Assembly (NCBI GenBank): GCA_016180285.1
Contig: JACPBO010000011.1
Coordinates: 1 to 58,043 of the forward strand
DNA from: Candidatus Woesearchaeota archaeon
Lineage (GTDB): Archaea; Nanobdellota; Nanobdellia; Woesearchaeales; JACPBO01
Direction of reading: 5' to 3'
DNA: 58,043 nt
A program made the translations under genes and the position numbers. Under the pieces are notes generated by a model. The model saw only the letters and a program-made list of their open reading frames with translations, was not told the origin of the DNA and did no database searches. Below, one piece after another: positions 1,531 through 56,088 of this stretch (position 1 is the first letter of the stretch; each line of letters starts with the position of its first letter).

Positions 1531-3165
1531 ATGGCAAACCAGCAGATACAGCCGATCTTTATTCTGCCTGAAGGCAGCCAGAGGACAACTGGAAGAAACG
1601 CGCAGAGGACAAACATAATGGCAGCCAAGTTAGTTGCTGAAACTGTAAGGACAACTCTCGGCCCGAAAGGAATGGACAAGATGCTTGTTGACAGCTTAGG
1701 GGATGTTGTCATAACAAATGACGGGGTTACAATTCTTGAAGAGATGCAGATAGAGCATCCTTCTGCAAAAATGCTTGTTGAAATCGCAAAAACACAGGAG
1801 AATGAAGTTGGCGACGGGACAACAACAGCAGTTGTTATCGCAGGAGAATTATTGAAGCAGGCTGAGGATCTGCTTGACCAGGAGATTCATCCTACGGTTA
1901 TTGCCCGCGGCTACAGGCTGGCTTCTGAGAAGGCAATAGCCATCCTGAACAATATTGCTGAAACAATTGATGAAAATGACGCTGAAACATTAAAGAAGAT
2001 CGCAATAACGGCCATGACTGGCAAAGGCGCTGAAACAGACAAGGAGCATTTATCAGACATTACTGTCAAAGCAGTGAAAGAAATTGCTGAGAAAGAAAAT
2101 GGCGATATAATAATAGACATTGAAAACGTAAAGCTTGAAAAGAAAGTCGGCGGAGCTGTTGAGGATACTGAGTTAATACAGGGTGTTGTCCTGGACAAGG
2201 AAAAGGTTCACTCAGGAATGCCGAGGCTGATTAAAAATGCAAAAATCGCTTTAGTTGATTCTGCATTGGAAATAAAAAATACCGAAATTGACGCCAAAAT
2301 TGAAATATCAGACCCTGAAAAAATGCAGGCATTCCTTGATATGGAAGAGAATATGCTCAGGAAGATGGTTGGCAAGATAGAAAGCTCCGGAGCAAATGTT
2401 GTATTCTGCCAGAAAGGCATTGATGACATGGCGCAGCATTTTTTATCCAAGAAAGGAATTTATGCTGCAAGAAGGATAAAGCAAAGCGACATGGAAGCTT
2501 TAGCGAGAGCAACTGGAGCTAAGATTGTCACGAATTTGGACGAGCTAAGCAATGATGATTTGGGAAATGCAGGGATAGTTGAAGAAAAAAAGATCGGAGA
2601 TGAAGATATGACCTATGTCAAAGACTGCAAGAATCCCAAGTCCGTAACTATTTTGATCAGAGGCGGAACAGAGCATGTTGTAGATGAAGTTAAAAGGGCA
2701 ATGGAAGATGCTATCGGCGACACAGCAGCTGTGCTGAGAAGCAAAAAGATTGTGGCAGGCGCAGGCGCAGTTGAGATAGAGCTTGCCCGTGAGTTAAGGA
2801 AATACGCCGAATCATTGTCCGGAAGGGAGCAGTTGGCTGTCAATGCATTTGCAAATGCTGTTGAAGTCATTCCTAGAACGCTGGCAGAGAATGCCGGGAT
2901 TGATCCAATTGACATTTTAACAGAGCTTAAGGCAGCTCATGACAAGAAGCAGAAATGGGCAGGAATTGATGTTTTCAAGGCAAAGGTTGTTGATGCCTTC
3001 GAGCAGGGCGTTATAGAGCCTTTGAAGATCAAAACACAGGCAATAAGCTCAGCTTCAGAAGTTGCAGTAATGATATTGAGGATCGACGATGTTATTGCTG
3101 CAGGCGGCGGATCTAAAGGGCCTTCAATGCCTCCTGGAATGGGCGGCGAGATGCCTGAATACTAG
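1531..3165 (+). CDS. thsA: thermosome subunit (group II chaperonin)
   Basis: 544 aa. Carries [19 protein letters not shown], the VGDGTTT nucleotide-binding loop and a Gly/Met-rich C-terminal tail ([12 protein letters not shown]). GGGGGG Shine-Dalgarno-like run 8 nt upstream of the ATG. Confidence 0.95.
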
Positions 3166-3219
3166 TTTTATTTTTTTACATTTTCTTTTTAAAAAATTAG
3201 ATGCAAATTTAAGAAATAA

Positions 3220-3627
3220 TCAACCTCTTTCCAGTATCCTCACCGTATCATCTATTGAATTCTCATCTATCCAGGAATTATCACCTGCTTCTTTTGCCAT
3301 CGACTCTTTTTTATATTGTTGCGGTGCTTTCCATGCTCTTCTTTGCGTTATATTGCTGCGCTTTTCAGCAACAAATTTCTTTGCAGCATCTAGCCCTTCA
3401 CTCAGGATTATTTCGATAATTTCCTTATCTGCTTCGCTAATCTCAATGTCCAAATCATCTAAAAAGCCGTTCCGACGGAAATATATGTTTATGTTATGCT
3501 TATAATTGACAATTATGCTCATTTCATGCGAGCATTTTTTTATTTCACCGTCAGTACAGTCATGTGGCGACGTCTTAGCGTGAAAAAAATATGTTGCCAG
3601 ATCCTTATTCGCATATGGTTCTTCCAT
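3220..3627 (-). CDS. hypothetical protein
   Basis: 135-aa ORF convergent with the thermosome gene. No recognisable motif. Confidence 0.4.
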   Translation of the reverse strand: MEEPYANKDLATYFFHAKTSPHDCTDGEIKKCSHEMSIIVNYKHNINIYFRRNGFLDDLDIEISEADKEIIEIILSEGLDAAKKFVAEKRSNITQRRAWKAPQQYKKESMAKEAGDNSWIDENSIDDTVRILERG

Positions 3628-3794
3628 GCGGGATTAGAAGCGAGGATATGCTTATATTCTTTTCTATTTTGACCATTTTGAAGTATTGCGTAGGAAGATT
3701 TTGTTCTATAAATCTCAAAACGAAATCTTTATATACATTTACCCCTTAATTCCACAATAATTAGATTTTATAATGTCAAAAAGAGGTGTTTAGC

Positions 3795-9346: not shown

Positions 9347-9428
9347 AAAATGATTTAAATAAGCGCATATTTATAAATCTTTCTATTTTTACCCTTAAAA
9401 AGTAGTTACAAAAGATATGCTGTCTTTA

Positions 9429-9582
9429 AAAATGTCAGAATTTTCCATCCAGTTTTTGACTGGTGGCAGAAAGCCAACTTTTGTTGTATGTAAAAAATTC
9501 TGAGCATGCTCAAAAACCACCTGATGTGATGGAATGTAGCTAAATGCCACCCCTCTATGGTGAGTGGTTTTTGACAGAAAAT
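9429..9582. repeat. 154-nt hairpin-rich repeat, copy A (intergenic)
   Basis: Hand alignment to 22385..22538: same length, 18 mismatches, no gaps. Internal complementary arms are TCAGAATTTT/AAAATTCTGA, the palindrome TGAGCATGCTCA, AAAAACCAC/GTGGTTTTT, and terminal TGTCA/TGACA. AAAAT is present at both ends. Confidence 0.85.
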
Positions 9583-9614: not shown

Positions 9615-10511
9615 ATGGATTCTGAAGCTGCTGGGGAAAGTGAAAGACCTAGAGAAGAGAACCTTGCAGAGAGAATACTAAAAGAGCATCAGGTTCTTGA
9701 TCTCAATATTGGAAAAGGGATCAAAATAGAAGCCGGAGACCAATTCTTTGGCATAGCGCAGCCAATAATCCAGGATGGAAAGCTGGTTGAGCCAATGTGC
9801 GGCATCATCCCCAGGGGCATTTTAGAAAGCTACATGGACAAAAAAGGCATGACTTATGGCGTTTTTGAACTTTTAAAAAAAGGTAAAATCGGATTAGTGG
9901 ATTTGAAAGGTTTGCCGCCAAATATTTCTCTACATGATTTTGGCTTTGGCAGGTACAGATTTAAGATTACAGAAGTTTTAGAGGAAAAGATAGAAAAAAT
10001 AGGCCATGTATTCTGCGCCAGAGTTTTAAGCGAGGAAAAGACAGGCGTTAAGCATACGCACTATAAGAAAGAAGTTAAATTTTTAACAGAAGTCCCTGAA
10101 AAATTTAGAAAAATATGGCTTACTGCAAAAAAACCTGGAACAGATGATGTTTATTATGTTTTAAGGGGCAATGATGAAATTGAGTGGAAAGGGATTGAGA
10201 GAGGAGACAGCTTCAATGCAACATTAACGAATTACAATGGATCGGGCAAGCATGATTTTGAGATAAAACAATTCAATGAATTTGGCTATATTGGCCATGT
10301 AAAGCCAGAAGACAAAAATCATGAGTTTAAAACAAATTTTGATTACAAAATGCTGCGTACAAATCTTGTTTATAGATTTGTAACTGTTCATGTGATGCCT
10401 CCGGGAGAAAGATTGCTGCGCAAATTCTACTGCATTCCGCTGCATTTGGTAAAAGGCATTGATGCAGCTTATGCGAGATATGAGCCTGCTAAGCCTTGTT
10501 TTTTTCGATAA
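9615..10511 (+). CDS. hypothetical protein
   Basis: 298-aa ORF ending 31 nt upstream of the preferred ATG (10543) of the HerA-like ATPase, in the same direction. No family recognised and no NurA-like DGS motif seen. Confidence 0.5.
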   Translation: MDSEAAGESERPREENLAERILKEHQVLDLNIGKGIKIEAGDQFFGIAQPIIQDGKLVEPMCGIIPRGILESYMDKKGMTYGVFELLKKGKIGLVDLKGLPPNISLHDFGFGRYRFKITEVLEEKIEKIGHVFCARVLSEEKTGVKHTHYKKEVKFLTEVPEKFRKIWLTAKKPGTDDVYYVLRGNDEIEWKGIERGDSFNATLTNYNGSGKHDFEIKQFNEFGYIGHVKPEDKNHEFKTNFDYKMLRTNLVYRFVTVHVMPPGERLLRKFYCIPLHLVKGIDAAYARYEPAKPCFFR

Positions 10512-20838: not shown

Positions 20839-21636
20839 TTACTTATTTCTTTTTATTTCTTCGCCGTATAAATTCATAAAGCCATAATGAGATATTTCAT
20901 TAGGCAAATTTTCTTTATTTATTGGAACAAAGTTTTTAAATTCTTCTTCAAATGGTATGAACTTTTCTGCAAAGAATTTTCTATATTCTAAAAGTAGATG
21001 ATGCCCCTTTTCTAAAAGATTTATTTTTTTTGATTGGTGAATGCTATTAATATTCTCAAATATTCTCCAGTTATATCCTTCACAATTTACTCTAATCGGC
21101 GTTTCACCAAGATAAGATTGAATAAAGACCAGAGTCTTTCCGCTACATTTTATGCCATCCATTTTTAATAAGGATATATTTAGATCAAGAATACTTTCTT
21201 CAAGCATTTCCACAGAATCTTCTCGTTGAATTATTTTTTTGTTTGCCCTTATTTTTTTAAGCATCTCGTTCTCGTCATGTAATAAAATGGCATACCACTT
21301 ATTGTTTATATTTGACAAGAAACTATATCCAAAAGAACGATTATGAATTCTACCATTTTTATCAAGAAAGACATAATTTACATCTTCGAACTCTAAAACA
21401 GAACTTCTAGAATTTTTTTCTATAATGCCTGTTAAAACTGCAAAATTGTATTTAAACAGATCATCTGAAAACTGACACCCGCATTTTATTTTATCAACTA
21501 AGCCATCCTTTGATGAATTTTTTTCTACTCCGATCAAAACCATATATTCTTTTTCAGGTATAGCTCTGTCACTCTTTTCTTTGGGCAATACTTCCGGAGG
21601 AGCAGTTCTTTCTATTACTTCTGTCAATACAGGCAT
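20839..21636 (-). CDS. hypothetical protein
   Basis: 265-aa ORF divergent from the NTase/HEPN pair. No family recognised. Confidence 0.5.
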   Translation of the reverse strand: MPVLTEVIERTAPPEVLPKEKSDRAIPEKEYMVLIGVEKNSSKDGLVDKIKCGCQFSDDLFKYNFAVLTGIIEKNSRSSVLEFEDVNYVFLDKNGRIHNRSFGYSFLSNINNKWYAILLHDENEMLKKIRANKKIIQREDSVEMLEESILDLNISLLKMDGIKCSGKTLVFIQSYLGETPIRVNCEGYNWRIFENINSIHQSKKINLLEKGHHLLLEYRKFFAEKFIPFEEEFKNFVPINKENLPNEISHYGFMNLYGEEIKRNK

Positions 21637-21731
21637 ATTTAATGAGAATACGCTTAAATTTAAAAATCTTTCGAGAATTTCTCATAAATAAAACCGAAAG
21701 GTTTATATAAGTGTATGTTTTTAGCATACAT

Positions 21732-22340
21732 ATGGCTGTTAATAACATACAATTTACAAGGATCGAGATCAAGATAGCAAAATACATTTTTAAGCACTAT
21801 AAAGACAGGCGCAATGCCAGGCAATTGGCCAGAATCCTAAACATTAACCATGCTCATGCGAATAAGCTGTGCAACCTTCTTGCAGAAAAGCGGCTTTTGA
21901 TTAAGGAAGAAATAGGAAACTCAGCTTATTTTTCATTTAATTATGAAAATAAATTAGCTGTTAAATTCATGGAATATGTGTTAAGTTTGGAGGAAAAAGA
22001 GTTTCCAAAATGGCTTATTGTTGTTTTGCACAGCTTGAAAAAATTCATGCCTTATCTTGAGATGGGGCTCGTTTTTGGATCCTCAATAAAGACCCGTGAT
22101 TTTAATGATATTGATGTCTTGCTTGTGTATGACGAAAAAGAGTCTAAGAAAATCAGTAAAATTAAAGAAGAAATAAGAAAGTCCCAATTAGTGGAACAGC
22201 CAATAAGATATGCGGATGTAGCTGAAAAGGACATGCTTCTGAACAAAGGCGATAAGACCTTCTACAGCATTATGTCAGACAGCTTAATATTTCATAATCC
22301 TGAAAAATATGTTGAGGTGGTTAAAAAATGCCGCAAATAG
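21732..22340 (+). CDS. wHTH-fused nucleotidyltransferase (MNT-like antitoxin of an MNT/HEPN pair)
   Basis: N-terminal wHTH-like ARQLARILNINHAHANKLCNLLAEKRLL and the Pol-beta NTase motif GLVFGSSIKTRDFNDIDVLLVYD. ATG at 21732 is preferred over the GTG at 21711. Confidence 0.75.
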   Translation: MAVNNIQFTRIEIKIAKYIFKHYKDRRNARQLARILNINHAHANKLCNLLAEKRLLIKEEIGNSAYFSFNYENKLAVKFMEYVLSLEEKEFPKWLIVVLHSLKKFMPYLEMGLVFGSSIKTRDFNDIDVLLVYDEKESKKISKIKEEIRKSQLVEQPIRYADVAEKDMLLNKGDKTFYSIMSDSLIFHNPEKYVEVVKKCRK

Positions 22341-22387
22341 ACAATCATCTGAAATGGTGCCTAAAGGATCAGCGAAGGCTGATGAAA
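22328..22387 (+). other. 5' fragment of the HEPN gene (MPQIDNHLKWCLKDQRRLMK), separated from the rest by the repeat insertion
   Basis: ATG at 22328 overlaps the NTase stop by 13 nt; the second pair shows the same kind of overlap (14 nt). It is in the same frame as 22520..22954. The frame is closed by TAG at 22406..22408 inside the repeat. Confidence 0.6.
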
Positions 22388-22538
22388 ATGTCAGAATTTT
22401 CCATCTAGTCTTTGACTGGTGGCAGAAAGCCAACCTTTTTCATATGCGGAAAATTCTGAGCATGCTCAAAAACAACCTGATGCGATGGAACGTAGCTACA
22501 TGCCACTCATCTATGATGGGTGGTTTTTGACACAAAAT
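22385..22538. repeat. 154-nt hairpin-rich repeat, copy B (inside the HEPN gene)
   Basis: See copy A. Arms here are TCAGAATTTTCC/GGAAAATTCTGA (12 bp), TGAGCATGCTCA, and CCACTCATC-TAT-GATGGGTGG (9 bp with one G-U). The core between the two flanking AAAAT pentamers is 22390..22533, 144 nt. Confidence 0.85.
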
Positions 22539-22954
22539 CAGATTTGGATTTGGCGCAAAAACATTTGAAGAAATCAGAGTATAATTATGGTGTTTTGAAG
22601 ACTCTTGAGAACTTAAAGATATATGACTGGGCCTTGAATGTCGGTTTTTATGCGATTTATCATTGCTTTTTAGGGATACTGTCAAAATACGGCTACGCAT
22701 CACAGAATCAGGCATGCACGATAACGGTGCTTCTTAAGCTGATAGAAGAAAAAAAGCTAAATCTTGACAAAGACATTGTTATGCAATTTGACACGCTTGA
22801 TGTTGAGGAAAACTTGGCTGCTTCCACTGTAAGAATGGAACGGGAAATCTCAACTTATGGTGTAGAGACAAGCATTGATGTGAAACAATTAAAGAAAATG
22901 AAAGAACTGATTTTAAAATTACAAAGGGAAACAATCAGGATTTTGGCAGAATAA
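22520..22954 (+). CDS. HEPN-domain protein (toxin-like partner of the NTase), 3' portion downstream of the insertion
   Basis: All-helical ~140 aa. It is a paralog-level match to 54996..55529: the conserved YDWALNVGFYAIYHCFLGILSKYGY corresponds to YSWLWAIVTSYYAMYYIANAVLYKLGY. Lies directly downstream of the NTase. Confidence 0.65.
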   Translation: MVFDTKSDLDLAQKHLKKSEYNYGVLKTLENLKIYDWALNVGFYAIYHCFLGILSKYGYASQNQACTITVLLKLIEEKKLNLDKDIVMQFDTLDVEENLAASTVRMEREISTYGVETSIDVKQLKKMKELILKLQRETIRILAE

Positions 22955-26362: not shown

Positions 26363-29300
26363 TCAAGCCCCTAGCTGCCCTTCTGTTAATCCTTTTCTTT
26401 CAATGATCTTCTTTATTATGATCGCCTGCAATTCTGCAGGAACAGGCTCGAACATTTGATCAATTAGAGAAGAAACTCCTCTTCCGCTTGTTGCGCTTCT
26501 TAAGTCAGATGCCCAGCCGAGCAATTCAGCTACCGGCATCTTTGCTTTTGCAACAAAACCCATTCCTTCCTGGTTCATCTCAAACAACTGGCCTCTTTTT
26601 CTTGAAACAAGCTTTGAAATCTCACCCATATACTCTGCAGGGCCTTCAATAAGCAGAACTTGCAATGGCTCAAGAAGAACAGGCTTGGCATACATCATTG
26701 CGCCTCTTATGCCCTCTCTTACAGCAGGATAAACCTGAGCAGGTCCTCTGTGAATAGCATCTTCATGCAGCTTTACATCAGTTAATGTCACTTTGATTTT
26801 GTTGCATGGCTCTCTGCATAAGGGTCCTGCTCTCATAACCTCTTCAAAAGCATCTATTATAAGCTCCATAACTTCCGGAAGATGAACCTCGCCCCTGGTT
26901 ATTTCTATCAACATGTTGTCTTTATAGATATCCTTGACTCTTCTTGAAGTTTTGCTGTCCATTCCCCTGATCTCCAGATTCTTCCACAGCTCTTCATCCT
27001 TTTTCCTTATTCTCATTTCAGGAAGAATTCCATCAACTGCTGCTTTGTAGATTTCATCATTAAGCGGCTCAACAACAAACATGAATTTATTGTGCTTATT
27101 GGGAGTTTTTCCCTCAATTTCAGGAGATTGTTTTGTGATAGACTCTCTGTAAACAACTATTGGCGGCGATGTCTTGACATCAACGCCTTTCTCTGTTTTT
27201 ATTCTTCCTTCTATAATTTCAAGATGAAGCTCACCCATTCCGGACATCAGATGCTCGCCGGTTTCTTCATTAATTTCTATTTTAATGGAAGGGTCTTCTT
27301 TTGCAACTTTCCTGAGAACTTCGACAAGCTTTGGAAGGTCCATTGGCTTTGCAGCCTCTATTGCTTTTGTGATTACCGGCTCAAATATGTGCTTTAACTC
27401 TGTGAAAGCCTGCTCCGGCTCAGCTGTTATTGTTTCGCCTGCATTTCCAACAACTCCTGCAATTGCCAGCACGTTCCCTGCTGTAACCTCTTCCATCTGC
27501 GCAACTTTTCCGTTTGGGTTGCAGCTTATAATATCTTTTCCAAATTCAGATTCAGGGTCGCCGTGCCATATTTTCGGGATTCTGTATTTTTGGGCCTCAA
27601 GCGGATCAGGAAGGTGCTTTATAACCATGTCAAGCACAACTTCATGCAAAGGCGCATTTTCCCATACCCATTTTTTTCTCTCCTCTCCGCTCAGCTCGTA
27701 AATCTTAAGAATGTCCTTGAAGCCTATGTTTTTCTTCTTCATAAACGGAACAGACATTGCCCAGTTGTCCCTTGCTGAGCCGAATGCAACGCTTCCATCC
27801 ATGATATCAACCTGAAATTTCTTCTTTAATTCAGGCTCTGCTATCTCATCTATTAAAACATTGAAATCCTTGAAAATCTTCATAAACCTTTCCTGCATCT
27901 GCTCCGGAGTAAACTGCAGCTCTTTTATCAGCCTGTCAACCTTATTAATAAAAAGAAGCGGCTTAACCCTTTCCCTTAATGCCTGTTTTATAACAGTTTC
28001 AGTCTGCGGCATTATGCCTTCGCAAGCGCAAACTAAGACGATTGTTCCGTCAATAGCTCGCATTGCCCTTGTAACATTTCCGCTGAAATCAATGTGCCCG
28101 GGAGTGTCAATCAAATTAATAAGATATTCCTTGCCTTCAAACTCATGCACCATTGAAACATTTGCAGCATCAACTGTAAGCAATCTGTCCTGCTCATCCT
28201 TGTGCTGCCACGTCTCCATTCCAGCATCTAAGCTTCCGGCATTTTTTTCAGCCATCAAGCCTGCAGCTGCAAGAAGGTTGTCTGTGAAAGCTGTATTATG
28301 AATGACCATGCCCTCTGCTACAAAATTGTGAGTTTCAGGAACAGTGAAATCATAAACCACTTCCTCAAATCCCTGCTCGATTGATTTTACTTCTATGAAC
28401 GCAAGGTCTTCATCGCCTTTATCTTTCAATAATTTATTGACGAGCATAAGTTTATTTCCGACTTTCACAGTATCACAAACAATGCTTCCAGAAACTGCGT
28501 TAACTAGAGTCTTTAATTTTTCAATTTTTTCTTTTAGTCCAAAGCCTATCTGTTTCTCAAAATTAATTGCGGATAATCCTGAGATGGTTAGGGCATTATC
28601 TTTTTCTTTTATGGCAATGCAGCCGAATCTCAAGAGCAATAAATGCAAATCATCAATCATTTTTTGGCTTGCAGAAGATAGCGTAACAGCGCTTCTAGAT
28701 TTTTCAACCCCCCCATCAGTATCAAAATAACCTTTTAATAATTGTGCAATGTACTTTTTATCAGAATTAAATACGAAATCCGATATTTTAATGTTGTGGG
28801 CTTTTTTCTTCAACGGATAATCAAATAGGCATTTTAACACATATGCAAGAGTCATGTTTGTAATAATCTCGGGTGTTTTTTCTTTCCATTGGACTTTTGT
28901 TGTTTTAATGCCTACTTTTCTGCATATTTCAATGACTTTATTTCCCAAATCATCTTTTCCAACAACAAATTTTTTTCCAGAACCATCTCCTAAAAATAAA
29001 CCTGCAAGGTAAAAGAGTTCTTCAAAATTTACAGGCAACTTTATTTTTAATGAATTTTGGCCCCTTTGCTTTCCAGTTCTGTAAAAAATGAAACTAATAT
29101 TGTCGTAAATCATTTCGATATCAAGATTGAAGAGATTACATATCTTGAGCAAATCATTTAAATTATGCCTGTTCTGCCATAGCCCATGATAAAAAGATTT
29201 GGGTTTAACAGAAATTGGCAGTTGCTTTAAATTCTTAATGCCATATTCCAGGATTTTTTTCTTCAATGATGAGCCAAAATCTGGTTTAAGATTGACATAA

Positions 29301-29827
29301 AAATTTTCAGTTGAAAGTTTTTCTAGAATTTTTCTTTTTGTATTCATAGTTGAGTTTGCATCCAACTTTCTTGCACATACAACCCTGTCGCCAAGCTTCA
29401 AGTCTTTAGCTTCAAGTTCTATAAAATTTCCATCCTTGGAAACAATATACTTGTGCTCTGGGGTTGTGGCGATCTCAAATCTGTTTCTTAATTTTATTTT
29501 AATTGTTTTTCCGCCTGTTAGCCTCCAGGCATATTGAATTTCTTTTTTCTCGAGTCTCCCTGTGTTTTTGTTAAGGGAAAAGACGGTTATTGATTTATTT
29601 GGAGAAAAAATAGTGCAATCTTCGTTTTCTTTGAAAACATTGCCGTTATTCGAAACTTCCTCATAGACTTCTTGTGCTGTTTTTATACGCCCATCAGCCA
29701 ATATCAACCTTGAATTGCCGGATATGCATTTTCCGTGATGTATGTGCGCAGAGGTGCAGATATTCCTGATCTGTGTCTGCGCCCTCATCAATCTCCTGAA
29801 TTTGTCTAGTTTTGTTTCTGCTGCCAT
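26363..29827 (-). CDS. fusA: translation elongation factor aEF-2 containing an intein
   Basis: G motifs AHIHHGK/T (split by the intein), DTPGH and NKVD. Diphthamide-site HEDAIHRGPAQV. C-terminal domains III-V are recognisable. Confidence 0.95.
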   Translation of the reverse strand: MAAETKLDKFRRLMRAQTQIRNICTSAHIHHGKCISGNSRLILADGRIKTAQEVYEEVSNNGNVFKENEDCTIFSPNKSITVFSLNKNTGRLEKKEIQYAWRLTGGKTIKIKLRNRFEIATTPEHKYIVSKDGNFIELEAKDLKLGDRVVCARKLDANSTMNTKRKILEKLSTENFYVNLKPDFGSSLKKKILEYGIKNLKQLPISVKPKSFYHGLWQNRHNLNDLLKICNLFNLDIEMIYDNISFIFYRTGKQRGQNSLKIKLPVNFEELFYLAGLFLGDGSGKKFVVGKDDLGNKVIEICRKVGIKTTKVQWKEKTPEIITNMTLAYVLKCLFDYPLKKKAHNIKISDFVFNSDKKYIAQLLKGYFDTDGGVEKSRSAVTLSSASQKMIDDLHLLLLRFGCIAIKEKDNALTISGLSAINFEKQIGFGLKEKIEKLKTLVNAVSGSIVCDTVKVGNKLMLVNKLLKDKGDEDLAFIEVKSIEQGFEEVVYDFTVPETHNFVAEGMVIHNTAFTDNLLAAAGLMAEKNAGSLDAGMETWQHKDEQDRLLTVDAANVSMVHEFEGKEYLINLIDTPGHIDFSGNVTRAMRAIDGTIVLVCACEGIMPQTETVIKQALRERVKPLLFINKVDRLIKELQFTPEQMQERFMKIFKDFNVLIDEIAEPELKKKFQVDIMDGSVAFGSARDNWAMSVPFMKKKNIGFKDILKIYELSGEERKKWVWENAPLHEVVLDMVIKHLPDPLEAQKYRIPKIWHGDPESEFGKDIISCNPNGKVAQMEEVTAGNVLAIAGVVGNAGETITAEPEQAFTELKHIFEPVITKAIEAAKPMDLPKLVEVLRKVAKEDPSIKIEINEETGEHLMSGMGELHLEIIEGRIKTEKGVDVKTSPPIVVYRESITKQSPEIEGKTPNKHNKFMFVVEPLNDEIYKAAVDGILPEMRIRKKDEELWKNLEIRGMDSKTSRRVKDIYKDNMLIEITRGEVHLPEVMELIIDAFEEVMRAGPLCREPCNKIKVTLTDVKLHEDAIHRGPAQVYPAVREGIRGAMMYAKPVLLEPLQVLLIEGPAEYMGEISKLVSRKRGQLFEMNQEGMGFVAKAKMPVAELLGWASDLRSATSGRGVSSLIDQMFEPVPAELQAIIIKKIIERKGLTEGQLGA
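28295..29728 (-). mobile_element. 478-aa intein with LAGLIDADG homing-endonuclease domain, inserted in the EF-2 P-loop (GK|T)
   Basis: Starts at Cys (CISGNSRLILADG). Block B TPEH, LAGLIDADG motifs LAGLFLGDGSG and LLKGYFDTDGG, and a C-terminal VYDFTVPETHNFVAEGMVIHN followed by +1 Thr (TAFTDNLL). Residues 34..511 of the ORF. Confidence 0.9.
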
Positions 29828-32226: not shown

Positions 32227-32877
32227 ATGGAGCTCACTAAAGATCAATCAGATGCAATGCAGGAGAAGATCAGCAAGATGTCTCCAGAGGAGCTTAAGGA
32301 ATTCCAGAAGCAGCAGTGCGTATTCTGCCATATAATCTCCGGCAAAGTGCAGTCAAAGAAAGTTTATGAAGATGACAAGTGCATTGCAGTGCTTGACATC
32401 AATCCTGCCAATCCAGGGCATATGCTTGTTCTCCCAAAAGAGCATTATTCCATTATGCCGCAGATTCCGGAAGATGAAGTCGGCTATTATTTCAAGGTTG
32501 CCAAGGCGTTGTCGCAGGTAAGCCTGAAGGCATTGCAGAGCCATGGCACAACGATATTTGTTGCAAACGGCATTGCAGCAGGCCAGAAAGCGCAGCATTT
32601 TATGGTCCATGTTATCCCAAGAGTTGAAAATGATAATGTTGGATTGGAAATTCCTCATAATAGAATCAGCGAGGACGATCTGAACAAAGTAAGAAAGCTA
32701 TTGGCTGAAAAACTCGGAGCAGTGGAAGCGGAAATTGTAGAAGAGCCTAAGAAAGAGCTTGAAGAAAAAAAAGAAATCAAACCTGAAAAGAAAGCTAAAA
32801 AAGAAAAAACAGATAAAAAATCAGAAGAAAAAGTGGATCTTGATGACATTGCAAAATTATTGGGCGGCGGAAAATGA
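32227..32877 (+). CDS. HIT-family protein (variant motif HxMxH) with Lys/Glu-rich C-terminal tail
   Basis: CVFCHIISGK, NPANPGHMLVLPKEH and GQKAQHFMVHVIPR. Confidence 0.8.
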   Translation: MELTKDQSDAMQEKISKMSPEELKEFQKQQCVFCHIISGKVQSKKVYEDDKCIAVLDINPANPGHMLVLPKEHYSIMPQIPEDEVGYYFKVAKALSQVSLKALQSHGTTIFVANGIAAGQKAQHFMVHVIPRVENDNVGLEIPHNRISEDDLNKVRKLLAEKLGAVEAEIVEEPKKELEEKKEIKPEKKAKKEKTDKKSEEKVDLDDIAKLLGGGK

Positions 32878-33413
32878 TGGACAACTGCCCTTTCTGCGCA
32901 ATAATCGAGGGAAAAGCCGCTTCAAAGAAGATCTATGAAGATGAAAAAATAATCGCAATCCTTGATTTGAACCCTGCAAATGTGGGCCATGTCCTTGTCA
33001 TGCCGAAAGAGCATTACCCGATAATCGAGCAGGTTCCTGATCCTCTTGTTGATGCATTGTTTAAAATTGCAAACAGGATTTCCATGACTGTGTTTGAAAC
33101 ATTAAAGGCAGAAGGGACAAATATCATTGTTACGAACGGAATTGCAGCAGGCCAGAAAGCAGCGCACTTTATGGTGCATATCATCCCAAGAGCTCAAAAT
33201 GACAATATTAATTTCAACTGGAAGCCAAAGCAATTAAGCGAAGAAGAGATGTCAACAGTCGAGCTTAAGCTCAAGGAGCAGGCGAAAAAGATCGGAGAGT
33301 TTGAAAGGGAAAAGCCAAAGCCGATTGTGATCGAAGACAAGACTGAGAAGATCCCCGAGAAGATCGGGAAAGAGGAGAATTACCTGATAAAGCAGCTGGA
33401 GAGAATACCTTAG
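32874..33413 (+). CDS. HIT-family protein paralog (variant motif HxMxH)
   Basis: CPFCAIIEGK, NPANVGHVLVMPKEH and GQKAAHFMVHIIPR. Overlaps the upstream paralog by 4 nt (ATGA). Confidence 0.85.
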   Translation: MMDNCPFCAIIEGKAASKKIYEDEKIIAILDLNPANVGHVLVMPKEHYPIIEQVPDPLVDALFKIANRISMTVFETLKAEGTNIIVTNGIAAGQKAAHFMVHIIPRAQNDNINFNWKPKQLSEEEMSTVELKLKEQAKKIGEFEREKPKPIVIEDKTEKIPEKIGKEENYLIKQLERIP

Positions 33414-54995: not shown

Positions 54996-55529
54996 TCACT
55001 TGAATTCAGGCAATAACTTTTTCATCTCAATGACAAATTCTTTTGCGCGTTCAAGTGAAGTCTTTGCTTTTGCTTCCTTTGCGCTTTCATTTGTCCTGTA
55101 CTGGAATATGCTTCTCTTTTCCCTCTCATAATCAAAGGACTGTATAATCTCATCAACTTTTATTCCTGCAAGAGCCTCCTTTTGCATTTCTTCATACTCT
55201 TCCAGTAATGATGCTTTGAGCTTATCCCTGACAAGGGCAATAAGGCTGTCAGCAGTAACTTTATGCGAAATTTTCTCTCCGACCTTATAGCCCAGTTTAT
55301 ATAAAACTGCATTTGCAATATAATACATGGCATAATATGACGTTACTATAGCCCAAAGCCACGAATATTTTTCTTTATACAGGATTTCAGCAACATTAAG
55401 GCTCTCATTGGCGTTATTCTCCAGTATATTAAACACCTGCTTATCAAAACCCGCCTTCGATAAAAGCCCATCTGAAAGATACATCTTGACATTATCCCTT
55501 GCTTCCTTTATTCTTTCATCTGTTAGCAT
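54996..55529 (-). CDS. HEPN-domain protein (partner of the NTase 55516..56088)
   Basis: 177 aa, all-helical. Its start overlaps the NTase stop by 14 nt. Paralog of 22520..22954. Confidence 0.65.
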   Translation of the reverse strand: MLTDERIKEARDNVKMYLSDGLLSKAGFDKQVFNILENNANESLNVAEILYKEKYSWLWAIVTSYYAMYYIANAVLYKLGYKVGEKISHKVTADSLIALVRDKLKASLLEEYEEMQKEALAGIKVDEIIQSFDYEREKRSIFQYRTNESAKEAKAKTSLERAKEFVIEMKKLLPEFK

Positions 55530-56088
55530 TCTCCATCACCCGATAATATTCTTCTACACCAATAAAGATTATATTTCTTTTTATTGCCTCGCTTACAACT
55601 GTAAATTCCCTGCTTTTCAGCATCTCAATAAAATCCCTGTATCTTATATCAGTTGCGTGAATCTTTAAAGGAAAACGCGATAATACCTGCTCTATTGGCT
55701 TAAAGTCTTCTGTGATTACAAGCATGTCTATATCAGAATGCTTTGCCTGTTTGCCTTTAGCATAACTCCCAAACAAAAGTGCGATAAATGGCGCGTTTAC
55801 CCTGCACAAGTCATTGTAAATTACTAAAAAATTCTTGTCTCTTAAAAGCTCTTTTCTTCTTTCATATTCAACAATAAAAACAGAATCATTGAAAATTCTG
55901 TTAAAAGAACAAAGTGTAGTGTTTCCAGTATGCTTAAGTGCAGCTATGCCTTCCTTTTCCAGCTTTTTCAATGCGTAATATGCGGATTTATAGTTTATCT
56001 TTCTCAACCTGGAGATTTTCCTTATACTGAAGGATTCTTCCTGGTTTTCAATAAGTAATTTAAGTATATTCAGTTTTTCATTATCCAT
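55516..56088 (-). CDS. wHTH-fused nucleotidyltransferase (MNT-like)
   Basis: N-terminal wHTH-like IRKISRLRKINYKSAYYALKKLEKEGI and NTase motif ALLFGSYAKGKQAKHSDIDMLVIT. BRE/TATA CGAAAGATTTATATA (minus sense) at 56121..56135. Confidence 0.8.
   Translation of the reverse strand: MDNEKLNILKLLIENQEESFSIRKISRLRKINYKSAYYALKKLEKEGIAALKHTGNTTLCSFNRIFNDSVFIVEYERRKELLRDKNFLVIYNDLCRVNAPFIALLFGSYAKGKQAKHSDIDMLVITEDFKPIEQVLSRFPLKIHATDIRYRDFIEMLKSREFTVVSEAIKRNIIFIGVEEYYRVMENANR

What the first reader, a model, noticed from the sequence alone, without database searches (positions are those of the whole stretch)
22328..22954. HEPN gene of an MNT/HEPN pair interrupted in frame by the 144-nt repeat core
An ATG at 22328 overlaps the nucleotidyltransferase stop by 13 nt, much like the second pair in this window (14-nt overlap at 55516..55529). 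It encodes MPQIDNHLKWCLKDQRRLMK, which resembles the N-terminus of the paralogous HEPN protein (..VKMYLSDGLLSK..). The frame then meets TAG at 22406..22408 inside the repeat and re-opens so that 22520..22954 is in the same frame (22328 and 22520 are both 2 mod 3). The core between the two flanking AAAAT pentamers (22390..22533) is 144 nt, which is 48 codons. Deleting it gives a continuous ORF ..RRLMKIKSDLDLAQKHLKKSE... Deleting the element plus one AAAAT (149 nt), as a simple target-site-duplication model would predict, leaves the gene out of frame. Three explanations remain open. The element may be removed at the RNA level, making it a protein-coding-gene intron of an unknown type. A mobile element may have inactivated or N-terminally truncated the toxin. 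Or the insertion may uncouple toxin translation from the antitoxin.
Basis: partly seen in the sequence, partly recalled or inferred. Interest (0 to 1): 0.8.

Follow-up and report, generated by a model that had tools for sequence, protein, structure and literature searches.

The report
Hairpin transposon splits a HEPN gene
A 144-base mobile hairpin element, one of a large family spread through tiny DPANN archaea, has landed inside a HEPN (toxin-type) gene and broken it; it is a DNA insertion and not an intron, and the family appears to pick its landing sites by base pairing, as IS200/IS605 transposons do.

Summary
The insert is 22389..22532 (TGTCAGAA...TTTTTGACA, 144 nt), not 22390..22533. Hundreds of uninterrupted orthologues are exactly 160 aa, begin MPQIDNHLKWCLKD, and read K-T-K at the junction. 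Their DNA shows the empty site AAAA^CAAAA. There is therefore no target-site duplication, and the two 'AAAAT' flanks are native gene sequence.

The insert carries five in-frame stops. It belongs to a multicopy family (at least 120 loci in about 50 Woesearchaeota, Pacearchaeota and Nanoarchaeia MAGs; 54-260 nt; lengths not biased to multiples of 3). Family features:
- conserved ends;
- two covarying hairpin domains;
- both subterminal hairpins on the same strand;
- a left-flank target TTTTNAWA^ and no TSD;
- mostly intergenic copies, placed just after TATA-like boxes.

The base 5' of the left hairpin foot is Watson-Crick complementary to target position -2 (53 of 55 insertions, p=1.6e-13). This is the guide/target logic of IS200/IS605 (HUH/Y1) single-strand transposons.

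Best reading: a non-autonomous IS200/IS605-like element disrupted the HEPN gene, and being in frame is a 1-in-3 accident. No intron signature was found (no BHB, no Rfam hit, second window copy intergenic). The cognate transposase is not identified. Whether a truncated HEPN is still made is open.

The parts
21732..22340 (+). MNT-type nucleotidyltransferase gene with an N-terminal wHTH (202 aa from ATG 21732; an alternative GTG lies at 21711). It is intact.
   Evidence: ORF list. Weak Pfam Polbeta hit, E=0.003. Colinear with the 202-aa genes upstream of uninterrupted HEPN genes in L126 and L127.
22328..22388 (+). 5' fragment of the HEPN gene: codons 1-20 plus the first base of codon 21. Its ATG overlaps the MNT stop by 13 nt.
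   Evidence: Matches the N-terminus of orthologues that are exactly 160 aa long (112 of the 120 listed; 671 hits in all). Q3 I4 D5 H7 L8 K9 W10 C11 L12 K13 R17 L18 are nearly invariant in the aligned set.
22381..22388 (+). Target octamer GATGAAAA, left of the insertion point. The family consensus is TTTTNAWA^.
   Evidence: Left-flank logo from 81 oriented copies. The same bases are present in the empty sites of L126 and L127.
22389..22532 (+). The inserted element, copy B: 144 nt, TGTCAGAA...GGTTTTTGACA, no target-site duplication. It carries five stops in the HEPN frame (22406, 22457, 22478, 22493, 22514).
   Evidence: Filled versus empty site comparison. Family alignment. Translation. RNA fold -47.1 kcal/mol, z=-3.3.
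22391..22459 (+). Left hairpin domain. Outer stem 22391-22402 pairs with 22448-22459. Subterminal hairpin CCATCTAGTC-TTT-GACTGGTGG spans 22401-22422. Candidate guide bases TTTT lie at 22397-22400; g1 = T22400 is complementary to target position -2 = A22387.
   Evidence: Covariation counts: helix 1 97.7% paired with 5 pairs changed on both sides; helix 2 89.8% paired with 5 such pairs. Guide/target association.
22457..22468 (+). Central perfect palindrome TGAGCATGCTCA, the junction of the two hairpin units. It is the most conserved part of the family.
   Evidence: Invariant in 42 aligned copies. The 20-mer around it found at least 120 loci.
22466..22530 (+). Right hairpin domain. Outer stem TCAAAAAC (22466-22473) pairs with GTTTTTGA (22523-22530). 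Subterminal hairpin CCACTCATC-TAT-GATGGGTGG spans 22503-22523.
   Evidence: helix 5 91.3% paired with 4 pairs changed on both sides. One compensatory A>G/T>C change in the outer stem in L035. Both inner hairpin loops read T-N-T on the + strand.
22533..22954 (+). 3' fragment of the HEPN gene: the rest of codon 21 through codon 160, plus the stop.
   Evidence: Colinear with the orthologues. Weak Pfam HEPN hit. HEPN fold seen in the orthologue model.
22520..22954 (+). Longest remaining ORF (144 aa). Its GTG start lies inside the element's right end (MVFD + residues 21-160). Expression is untested.
   Evidence: ORF list. Gene callers record this 144-aa product (P0010; 144-residue genes in L002, L003 and L005).
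9433..9576 (+). Element copy A (144 nt, 88% identical to B). It is intergenic, placed directly after a TATA-like CTTTAAAAA and 38 nt upstream of the ATG of the co-oriented gene 9615..10511.
54996..56088 (-). Paralogous, uninterrupted MNT (55516..56088) / HEPN (54996..55529) pair. It shows the normal overlapping arrangement.
   Evidence: Polbeta/NTP_transf_2 and HEPN above the Pfam cut-offs. Only 29% identical to the interrupted HEPN.

Best explanation
A 144-nt non-autonomous mobile DNA element inserted between the first and second base of codon 21 of a 160-codon HEPN (UPF0332-type) gene, which lies just downstream of its MNT partner. The element is a double hairpin with ends TGTCAGAA and TTTTTGACA.

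Shown:
- The insertion added exactly the element and nothing else, with no target-site duplication. Its length, 144 = 3 x 48, keeps the two gene halves in frame by chance.
- The element has five stops in that frame. The coupled start at 22328 therefore yields only a 26-aa peptide, and the rest of the gene is cut off from its start and from translational coupling.

Inferred:
- The family moves as single-stranded DNA by an IS200/IS605-like HUH (Y1) transposase supplied in trans.
- The transposase would recognise the two same-strand subterminal hairpins.
- The target (TTTTNAWA^) would be read partly by base pairing with bases just 5' of the left hairpin foot.
- The element would join 3' of the target without duplication, so excision would reseal the gene exactly.

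Not known:
- the cognate transposase;
- whether a truncated HEPN is made from GTG 22520;
- whether this HEPN is a toxin.
For: Gene interruption:
- The reconstruction gives a 160-aa protein. There are 671 homologues, and 112 of the 120 listed are exactly 160 aa, 78-88% identical and cover 99-100% of the query.
- All aligned orthologues share the N-terminal 20 residues. The junction residue is Thr in 10 of the 12 aligned orthologues.
- Empty-site DNA in L126 and L127 reads ...GATAAAAA^CAAAAC.... The window reads ...GATGAAAA[144 nt]CAAAAT....
- A second filled/empty pair gives the same result. GatD in L096 is 467 aa against 431 aa in its closest relative. The filled site ttttgaaa[108 nt]acaaaaaaa matches the empty site ttttgaaa^acaaaaaaa in L128.

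Mobile family:
- At least 120 loci in about 50 DPANN MAGs.
- 82 oriented full-length copies of 87-229 nt.
- Nine copies 98-100% identical at different sites in one MAG.
- Nested and head-to-tail copies.

No TSD: flank matches equal the shuffle expectation for k=2-6.

Target: left-flank positions -8..-1 read T T T T N A W A (A in 77/81 at -1 and 76/81 at -3). The right flank is flat.

Structure: 94.7% of cells paired against 35-52% when partners are slid, 15 pairs with changes on both sides, and 0 of 500 shuffles reach the observed value. Both inner hairpin loops read T-N-T on the same strand.

Guide/target pairing: the base 5' of the left hairpin foot against target position -2 gives A:T in 23/23 and T:A in 30/32 (Fisher p=1.6e-13). 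Mutual information is 0.86 bits, against 0.35 bits or less for every other position pair. This rule matches the one described for IS608 (PMC5934647).

Transposase candidates: Y1 transposases (PF01797) are common in Nanoarchaeota. One lies in the MAG with the recent burst.

Against read-through: five in-frame stops.
Against: - No transposase carrying these ends was found. No protein family is enriched next to copies.
- The element's hairpin motif occurs almost only inside the elements (51 inside, 1 outside).
- The Nanoarchaeota IS200-like elements examined have different end hairpins, CCCCGACC-TTTA-GGTCGGGG.
- The element has an 8-nt terminal inverted repeat (TGTCAGAA / TGTCAAAA). That is typical of DDE-type MITEs and not of IS200/IS605.
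- Only one guide/target position covaries.
- The right-end counterpart of the rule (G before the right hairpin foot against C of GACA) fails in the 'CATT' variants visible in the alignment.
- A 1-nt duplication of 'A' cannot be told apart from no duplication.
- Both HEPN fragments are still open, and the window copy is not an outlier at conserved positions among 112 orthologues. Loss of function is therefore not demonstrated.
Confidence: 0.8

Rival explanations
1. The 144-nt element is removed from the mRNA and a full 160-aa HEPN is made. The removal would be by the archaeal splicing endonuclease at a bulge-helix-bulge motif, or by a new self-splicing activity.
For: - The length is an exact multiple of 3, and precise removal restores the conserved ORF.
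- Both gene halves are still intact.
- The element is highly structured.
Against: - Copy A and most family members are intergenic.
- Lengths run from 87 to 229 nt with no excess of multiples of 3 (26/35/21).
- Other copies in genes are either read through in frame as protein (GatD +36 aa and two others) or break the frame (L121, 130 nt).
- A BHB needs the first intron bases to pair with the first bases of the 3' exon. UGUC/GUCA/UCAG have no partner within CAAAAUCAG (direct reading).
- Covariation favours two separate domains. The ends are not brought together with the exons.
- No Rfam family matches, including ribozymes and introns, even at E<=10.
- The protein database of 5.8 billion clusters holds no 160-aa product identical to the spliced form.
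Confidence: 0.03
2. It is a classical MITE moved by a DDE transposase through its terminal inverted repeats. The duplication is either 1 nt ('A') or has been lost.
For: - 8-nt terminal inverted repeats with one mismatch.
- Small size and high copy number.
- A MITE census reports one Woesearchaea genome with 105 MITEs per Mb (PMC11602168).
- A 1-nt 'A' duplication is formally compatible with both filled/empty pairs.
Against: - No duplication of 2-6 nt above chance in 82 copies.
- Two exact filled/empty comparisons show none.
- Target information lies on one side only.
- Both hairpins have the same strand polarity.
- The internal base/target Watson-Crick rule has no place in DDE transposition.
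- No DDE gene with these ends was found in 950 kb around the copies.
Confidence: 0.07
3. The insertion does not kill the gene but remodels it. A 144-aa HEPN lacking the first 20 residues (MVFD + residues 21-160) is made from GTG 22520 in the element's right end. It is now expressed independently of the MNT partner.
For: - An open 144-aa ORF exists and gene callers call it.
- The solved UPF0332 HEPN AF0298 (126 aa) aligns only from query residue 32 on, so the core bundle lies downstream of the insertion point.
- The window sequence is not an outlier at conserved positions.
Against: - The missing 20 residues are among the best conserved in the family. They are modelled with confidence as helix 2-12 plus strand 18-20.
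- There is no Shine-Dalgarno-like sequence at a workable distance before GTG 22520 (reading).
- The GTG sits inside the stable right hairpin.
- The amino-acid-replacement to synonymous-change ratio on the window branch is raised for HEPN (12/19 against 7/28 and 4/26; Fisher p=0.024) but not for the MNT gene.
Confidence: 0.15

Closest known systems
Non-autonomous derivatives of IS200/IS605 (palindrome-associated transposable elements, PATEs) and the IS608 'peel and paste' mechanism
   Same: - Inserts 3' of a short specific sequence that stays in the left flank.
- Makes no target-site duplication.
- Has subterminal hairpins at both ends on the same strand, with a second small hairpin after the left one.
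- A base just 5' of the left hairpin foot is complementary to the target.
- The hairpin-to-end distances are about 12 nt on the left and 9 nt on the right. For comparison, IS608 is about 19 and 10 nt as I recall; this comparison was not checked here.
- The right end (TTTTGACA) resembles the target (TTTTNAWA), and head-to-tail arrays occur.
   Different: - No tnpA or tnpB with these ends was found.
- It has 8-nt terminal inverted repeats, and each end pairs with the centre of the element.
- The target is about 8 nt, A/T-rich and TATA-box-like, not 4-5 nt.
- Only one covarying guide position was seen.
- Minimal forms are only about 54 nt.
REP / REPIN elements mobilised by RAYT (TnpA-REP)
   Same: Short, abundant, mostly intergenic palindromes arranged as doublets. 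They are thought to be moved in trans by a single-copy Y1 HUH enzyme.
   Different: - REPs carry a conserved GTAG-type tetranucleotide.
- REP doublets are inverted; here the two hairpin units are direct and the element has a defined polarity.
- RAYTs are known from bacteria, and no REP-flanked Y1 gene was seen here.
Rickettsia palindromic elements (RPE) and the Methanocaldococcus jannaschii repeats with coding potential (Suyama et al., as cited in PMC2229807)
   Same: Palindromic elements of 100-150 nt found inside protein genes. In this family three copies are in frame, open and read through: GatD +36 aa, a DUF6541 membrane protein +37 aa, and a GATase +40 aa.
   Different: The copy in this finding has five stops and cannot be translated. 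Most copies of the family are intergenic. RPE target rules and mechanism are unknown.
Classical prokaryotic MITEs (Correia/NEMIS, RUP, Sulfolobus SM elements)
   Same: Small, non-coding, multicopy, with terminal inverted repeats. They fold into long stem-loops and can inactivate genes.
   Different: No target-site duplication, one-sided target recognition, and strand-specific hairpins.
Archaeal bulge-helix-bulge introns in protein genes (e.g. cbf5 of Crenarchaeota; from my own knowledge)
   Same: A short insert in a protein-coding gene whose exact removal restores the ORF.
   Different: No BHB can form at the junctions. The same sequence is dispersed through intergenic DNA and varies in length.

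Membership tests
IS200/IS605-type single-strand (HUH/Y1) transposon derivative | Insertion without target-site duplication | tested here: met
   Two filled/empty site pairs. No flank identity above the shuffle expectation in 82 copies. A 1-nt 'A' duplication cannot be excluded.
IS200/IS605-type single-strand (HUH/Y1) transposon derivative | Inserts 3' of a specific short sequence that remains in the left flank | tested here: met
   Left flank reads TTTTNAWA^ (A 77/81 at -1, A 76/81 at -3, T about 73% at -5/-6). The right flank is flat. The motif is native sequence in the empty sites. In nine 98-100% identical copies, position -4 varies while -6, -5, -3, -2 and -1 are kept.
IS200/IS605-type single-strand (HUH/Y1) transposon derivative | Subterminal imperfect palindromes at both ends, on the same strand | tested here: met
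   CCACYNRTC-TNT-GAYNRGTGG hairpins near both ends. They covary, and both loops read T-N-T on the + strand.
IS200/IS605-type single-strand (HUH/Y1) transposon derivative | Target or cleavage site read by base pairing with a guide 5' of the hairpin foot | tested here: met
   g1 against target -2: A:T 23/23, T:A 30/32, p=1.6e-13, MI 0.86 bits. Only one position is informative. The right-end counterpart is not uniformly met.
IS200/IS605-type single-strand (HUH/Y1) transposon derivative | A cognate TnpA (Y1) element sharing the same ends | tested here: inconclusive
   Y1 transposases are present in the clade and in the MAG with the recent burst. Their own end hairpins differ. None was found with the element's ends in about 950 kb.
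IS200/IS605-type single-strand (HUH/Y1) transposon derivative | Absence of terminal inverted repeats | tested here: not met
   The ends TGTCAGAA and TTTTGACA are inverted repeats with one mismatch. Covariation suggests instead that each end pairs with the centre.
Classical DDE-type MITE | Target-site duplication of 2-10 bp flanking the terminal inverted repeats | tested here: not met
Archaeal BHB intron | Bulge-helix-bulge formed by exon/intron junction sequences | tested here: not met
   Direct reading of 22375-22400 and 22520-22550: the intron 5' bases have no complement in the first bases of the 3' exon. The conserved fold is two separate domains.
Known self-splicing introns / ribozymes / RNA families | Match to a curated covariance model | tested here: not met
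   Rfam at gathering thresholds finds only two tRNAs in the window. Nothing meaningful at E<=10 over 22300-22620.
RPE-like translated in-frame palindromic insert | Insert is open in the host frame and read through as protein | tested here: not met
   This copy has five in-frame stops. The feature is met by other family copies in L096, L099 and L048.
MNT/HEPN (type VII) toxin-antitoxin pair | HEPN fold encoded next to, and overlapping, a minimal nucleotidyltransferase gene | tested here: met
   Pfam HEPN and Polbeta hits, weak for this pair and above the cut-offs for the paralogous pair. AF2 model of the orthologue matches HEPN structures 2HSB and 1UFB. 13-nt overlap between the genes.
MNT/HEPN (type VII) toxin-antitoxin pair | Rx4-6H RNase motif in the HEPN protein | tested here: not met
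   In the orthologue alignment the conserved segment is R121-x-x-R124-E-x-S-T-Y129-G, with no His 4-6 residues after either Arg. 'Toxin' is therefore an assumption.

The most novel reading that the evidence does not exclude
The family is a DNA-guided, trans-mobilised single-strand element. Because it leaves no duplication, it would excise seamlessly. Under this reading the HEPN gene is not dead but reversibly switched off, with the switch set by a transposase. The same family also supplies in-frame peptide inserts to essential proteins such as GatD, which would make it an archaeal counterpart of the Rickettsia RPEs. Its target choice would be programmable through the base next to the hairpin foot.
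Probability: 0.2. Interest if true: 0.6.

Novelty: new member of a known kind. Interest (0 to 1): 0.4.

Why it matters
For the finding itself, an apparent 'in-frame intron in an archaeal toxin gene' turns out to be an ordinary gene disruption by a mobile element. This removes a false lead.

The element family is the useful by-product. It is a very compact (54-260 nt) double-hairpin transposon spread across Woesearchaeota, Pacearchaeota and Nanoarchaeia. It breaks short-read assemblies and splits gene calls; here it produces a spurious 144-aa 'HEPN' ORF. It sits between TATA-like boxes and genes. In several cases it is translated inside essential proteins.

The one-base guide/target rule gives a concrete, testable handle on how it moves. 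It suggests that HUH-type single-strand transposition shapes the reduced genomes of DPANN archaea.

Tried and rejected
- Rfam at gathering and at E<=10 gave no relevant family.
- A search for a transposase found nothing usable.
  - All-against-all clustering of 2,166 ORFs around the copies found no enriched family.
  - No obvious transposase appeared among the 59 long ORFs of the window by inspection. Only eight of them were scanned against Pfam.
Its relatives have unrelated end hairpins.
- The conserved hairpin motif was sought outside the elements and found once.
- A viral-contig scan with the 20-mer gave 0 hits.
- Metagenome scans for the lineage-specific empty junction and filled junction both gave 0 hits. 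The lineage is absent from that collection, so the negative result is uninformative.
- Look-ups of the window's MNT protein with both possible starts were not on record.
- Logan contigs of the same population stop about 119 nt beyond the start codon of gene 20839..21636 on the left (near window position 21755). On the right they begin inside the element or, in one case, just after HEPN. No alternative allele could be read.
- Tests for decay of the HEPN gene were inconclusive. The three-taxon replacement/synonymous ratio is raised (p=0.024), but the window copy is not an outlier among 112 orthologues.
- My first anchored extraction of copies double-counted both strands, because the ends are near-palindromic. 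It was redone using the best nhmmer strand.
- Apparent in-gene copies in L057 and L011 were dropped. In L057 the SDR domain starts downstream of the element. In L011 only 47 codons are open on one side, which I judged to be chance.
Full report
**1. What is in the sequence.**

The region reads as the first-stage reader described.
- An MNT-type nucleotidyltransferase gene ends at 22340.
- An ATG at 22328 overlaps it by 13 nt. It opens MPQIDNHLKWCLKDQRRLMK and runs into TAG 22406.
- A 144-aa ORF (GTG 22520..22954) lies in the same frame.
- The intervening sequence is a repeat. A second copy, 88% identical, lies at 9433-9576 between two divergent genes.
- Translating 22328..22954 in one frame shows five stops inside the insert, at 22406, 22457, 22478, 22493 and 22514.
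- Neighbouring genes mark the organism as an archaeon: L7Ae, S28e, an EF-2 with an intein, RNA polymerase subunits and a thermosome.
- Database relatives carry Woesearchaeota or Nanoarchaeota names, which indicates a DPANN archaeon.

**2. The gene really is interrupted, and the exact insert can be defined.**

Removing 144 nt gives a 160-aa protein. A search of 5.8 billion protein clusters returned 671 homologues. Of the 120 listed, 112 are exactly 160 aa, 78-88% identical and cover 99-100% of the query. Some are named UPF0332 family.
- All aligned orthologues start MPQIDNHLKWCLKD.KRL.K. The upstream 20-codon peptide is therefore the true N-terminus, and it is one of the best conserved parts of the protein.
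- At the junction most orthologues read K-T-K. That fixes the insert as 22389..22532 (TGTCAGAA…TTTTTGACA).
- The DNA of two uninterrupted loci reads …GATAAAAA^CAAAACC… (L126) and …GGTTAAAA^CAAAACC… (L127). The window reads …GATGAAAA[144 nt]CAAAATC….
- Nothing is duplicated. The two 'AAAAT' pentamers are the gene's own A-rich codons plus the first T of the element.
- Being in frame has a prior of one in three. Within the family, lengths mod 3 are 26/35/21.

**3. The insert belongs to a large mobile family.**

The MAGs are labelled Woesearchaeota, Pacearchaeota, Nanoarchaeota or Nanoarchaeia, and several are labelled 'uncultured Methanosarcinales'. Up to 11 loci come from one MAG. Four isolated hits in bacteria and a Methanomassiliicoccaceae MAG share only the 20-mer.

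An iterated nhmmer search gave 142 distinct places and 82 oriented full-length copies of 87-229 nt.
- The minimal forms are about 54 nt. They consist of two short hairpins: TGTCAGAAAnn…nnTTTCTGAGCA followed by TGCTCAAAAACC…GGTTTTTGACA. Longer forms carry extra hairpins in each loop. Nested and head-to-tail copies occur.
- In one MAG, nine 163-nt copies are 98-100% identical but sit at unrelated sites. This indicates recent transposition.
- Most copies are intergenic.
- The gene to the right is co-oriented in 47 of 69 cases. It often starts 18-60 nt after the element.
- The window's copy A follows this pattern. It sits directly after CTTTAAAAA and 38 nt before the ATG of gene 9615.

**4. Anatomy and insertion rules.**
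- The ends are invariant (TGTCAGAA, GGTTTTTGACA), as is the central palindrome TGAGCATGCTCA.
- A two-domain fold is supported by covariation on 42 copies. 94.7% of cells are paired, against 35-52% when partners are slid. 15 pairs change on both sides, and none of 500 shuffles reaches the observed value. One compensatory change lies in the otherwise invariant right outer stem.
- Each domain holds a hairpin of consensus CCACYNRTC-TNT-GAYNRGTGG. Both loops read T-N-T on the same strand, so the element has a functional strand.
- The left flank is strongly constrained to T T T T N A W A, with A in 77/81 at -1 and 76/81 at -3. The right flank is not constrained.
- Flank-to-flank identity of 2-6 nt equals the shuffle expectation.
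- A second filled/empty pair confirms both the exactness and the target. GatD in L096 is 467 aa and its nearest relative is 431 aa. The DNA reads ttttgaaa[108 nt]acaaaaaaa against ttttgaaa^acaaaaaaa.
- The right end TTTTGACA resembles the target. This fits the head-to-tail arrays GACA|TGTCAG seen in L114 and L028.

**5. A guide/target rule.**

The base immediately 5' of the left hairpin foot (g1) is Watson-Crick complementary to target position -2.
- g1=A goes with T in 23 of 23 insertions. g1=T goes with A in 30 of 32. Fisher p=1.6e-13.
- Mutual information is 0.86 bits, against 0.35 bits or less for all other position pairs.
- Each state occurs in several subfamilies: TATACC, CTTACC and AATACC against TTTTCC, CTTTCC and AATTCC.
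- The flank bases are target and not element. They are native in the two empty sites. In the nine near-identical copies, position -4 varies while -6, -5, -3, -2 and -1 are kept.

These properties define IS200/IS605 transposition as described for IS608 (PMC5934647):
- insertion 3' of a short sequence that stays in the left flank;
- no duplication;
- same-strand subterminal hairpins;
- recognition of the target by base pairing with bases 5' of the hairpin foot;
- exact resealing of the donor on excision.

In the HEPN copy, g1 is T22400 and target position -2 is A22387.

**6. What could not be shown.**
- No transposase with these ends was found in the window.
- None was enriched among 2,166 ORFs around the copies.
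- None lay next to stray copies of the hairpin motif.
- Y1 transposases (PF01797) are common in Nanoarchaeota, and one lies in the MAG with the recent burst. Their own end hairpins (CCCCGACC-TTTA-GGTCGGGG) differ from the element's.
- The element also has 8-nt terminal inverted repeats, which IS200/IS605 elements normally lack.

I therefore call the mechanism IS200/IS605-like and do not claim membership. I give about 0.55 to that part, and more than 0.9 to 'mobile DNA insertion'.

**7. The intron idea.**

Nothing supports removal at the RNA level.
- The same element is mostly intergenic.
- Its length varies freely.
- Other in-gene copies are either translated through or break the frame. Translated copies are GatD +36 aa, a DUF6541 membrane protein +37 aa and a GATase +40 aa, all in the phase A|TG TCA GAA … GTT TTT GAC. 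The frame-breaking copy is a second, unrelated HEPN gene in L121 with a 130-nt insert on the opposite strand.
- A bulge-helix-bulge needs the first intron bases to pair with the first bases of the downstream exon. UGUCAG has no partner in CAAAAUCAG.
- Rfam has no match.
- No identical 160-aa product is on record.

Only transcript data can exclude splicing altogether. I put it at about 3%.

**8. Consequence for the HEPN gene.**

The translationally coupled start now gives a 26-aa peptide. The only long ORF left starts at a GTG inside the right hairpin.
- An AlphaFold model of the closest orthologue (pLDDT 83) places a helix (residues 2-12) and a strand (18-20) before the insertion point. The four-helix HEPN core lies after it.
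- The best structural matches are the UPF0332 HEPN proteins AF0298 (2HSB) and TT1696.
- The truncated ORF would therefore keep the core but lose a conserved, structured N-terminal unit.
- Tests for decay are inconclusive. The amino-acid-replacement to synonymous-change ratio is raised on the window branch for HEPN (12/19 against 7/28 and 4/26, p=0.024) but not for the MNT gene. Yet the window copy is not an outlier among 112 orthologues. The insertion is probably recent.
- This HEPN family lacks the Rx4-6H motif, so calling it a toxin is an assumption.

**9. Comparison and verdict.**

This is a gene disrupted by a small non-autonomous mobile element, which is a known kind of event. Reviews of prokaryotic MITEs describe both gene inactivation and in-frame fusions, including the Rickettsia RPEs and M. 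jannaschii repeats (PMC2229807, PMC10969869). A census noted a MITE-dense Woesearchaea genome (PMC11602168).

I found no description of this particular family in the papers searched, and it has unusual traits:
- a double hairpin;
- no duplication;
- a TATA-like 8-nt target;
- a one-base guide rule;
- translated copies in essential genes.

I rate it as a new member of a known kind. Interest is moderate, carried by the family and not by the 'in-frame' coincidence that prompted the finding.

Noticed in passing
L096:3882-3989 (GatD), L099 (locus 1974-3785, DUF6541 membrane protein), L048:5655-5774 (GATase): Three family copies of 108, 111 and 120 nt lie inside long ORFs, in frame and without stops. 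All read MSEIA…FLSMLKN…VFD. GatD with the insert is 467 aa, exactly 36 aa longer than its closest relative (431 aa; other GatD homologues about 411-456 aa). This is an RPE-like translated insertion in a gene expected to be essential.
   Followed up: partly
L121:4441-4570 (Pacearchaeota RBG_13_36_9): A second, independent HEPN/UPF0332-type gene is interrupted by a 130-nt copy of the same family. It sits at a different codon (about 52) and in the opposite orientation. The Pfam HEPN match runs across the repaired junction.
   Followed up: partly
window 9433-9576 and left flank 9424-9432: Copy A sits immediately after a TATA-box-like CTTTAAAAA and 38 nt upstream of the ATG of gene 9615..10511. It probably lies between that gene's TATA box and its transcription start. 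Across the family the right-hand gene is co-oriented in 47 of 69 cases.
   Followed up: partly
L092:6920-7330; L133:106-522; L135:1501-1929: A conserved IS200-group Y1 transposase family (PF01797; 428 close relatives; named hits are all Nanoarchaeota) has its own end hairpins CCCCGACC-TTTA-GGTCGGGG. Most of its contigs are only 0.6-1.3 kb, as expected for a multicopy IS that breaks assemblies.
   Followed up: partly
window near 21755 and 22444-22532 (L001-L005, L129-L132): Logan assemblies of the same population stop at the same point, about 119 nt beyond the start codon of gene 20839..21636 (near window position 21755). This is seen in runs SRR4343430, SRR4343428, SRR12113385 and SRR12113431. 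On the other side the contigs begin inside the element or just after HEPN. The MNT gene and the left half of the element are never assembled there. Possible causes are repeats or strain variation of the cassette.
   Followed up: no
window 26363-29827 (-): The EF-2 gene encodes 1154 aa in the window (called as 1209 aa in L001) and carries an intein with a LAGLIDADG homing endonuclease domain, according to the Pfam families listed for the identical Logan contig.
   Followed up: no
window 32227-32877 and 32874-33413 (+); direct repeat 32545-32640 / 33114-33209: Two adjacent, overlapping HIT-family genes are paralogues. The 96-nt, 80% direct repeat reported by the repeat finder is this tandem gene duplication.
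   Followed up: no
HEPN orthologue alignment (positions 121-134 of the 160-aa protein; window 22833-22874): The conserved motif is R-x-x-R-E-x-S-T-Y-G-V-E-T-S, with no His 4-6 residues after either Arg. The paralogue (54996..55529) also lacks Rx4-6H. These UPF0332-type HEPN proteins may not be RNase toxins.
   Followed up: partly
L006-L125 record titles: Many MAGs carrying this element family are titled 'uncultured Methanosarcinales archaeon' (binchicken/SRP co-assemblies). Their element-bearing contigs share the family with Woesearchaeota and Nanoarchaeia MAGs, so the titles look like taxonomic mislabels.
   Followed up: no
L049:2341-2543; L114:4226-4502; L028:2908-2949: Nested and tandem arrangements occur. 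A mini-element is inserted in the loop of a larger copy's right hairpin (L049). Head-to-tail copies are joined as …TTTTTGACA|TGTCGGAAA… (L114) or, in L028, through a degenerate right end (…TTTCCGACA|TGTCAGAAA…). This fits a right end that mimics the target.
   Followed up: partly
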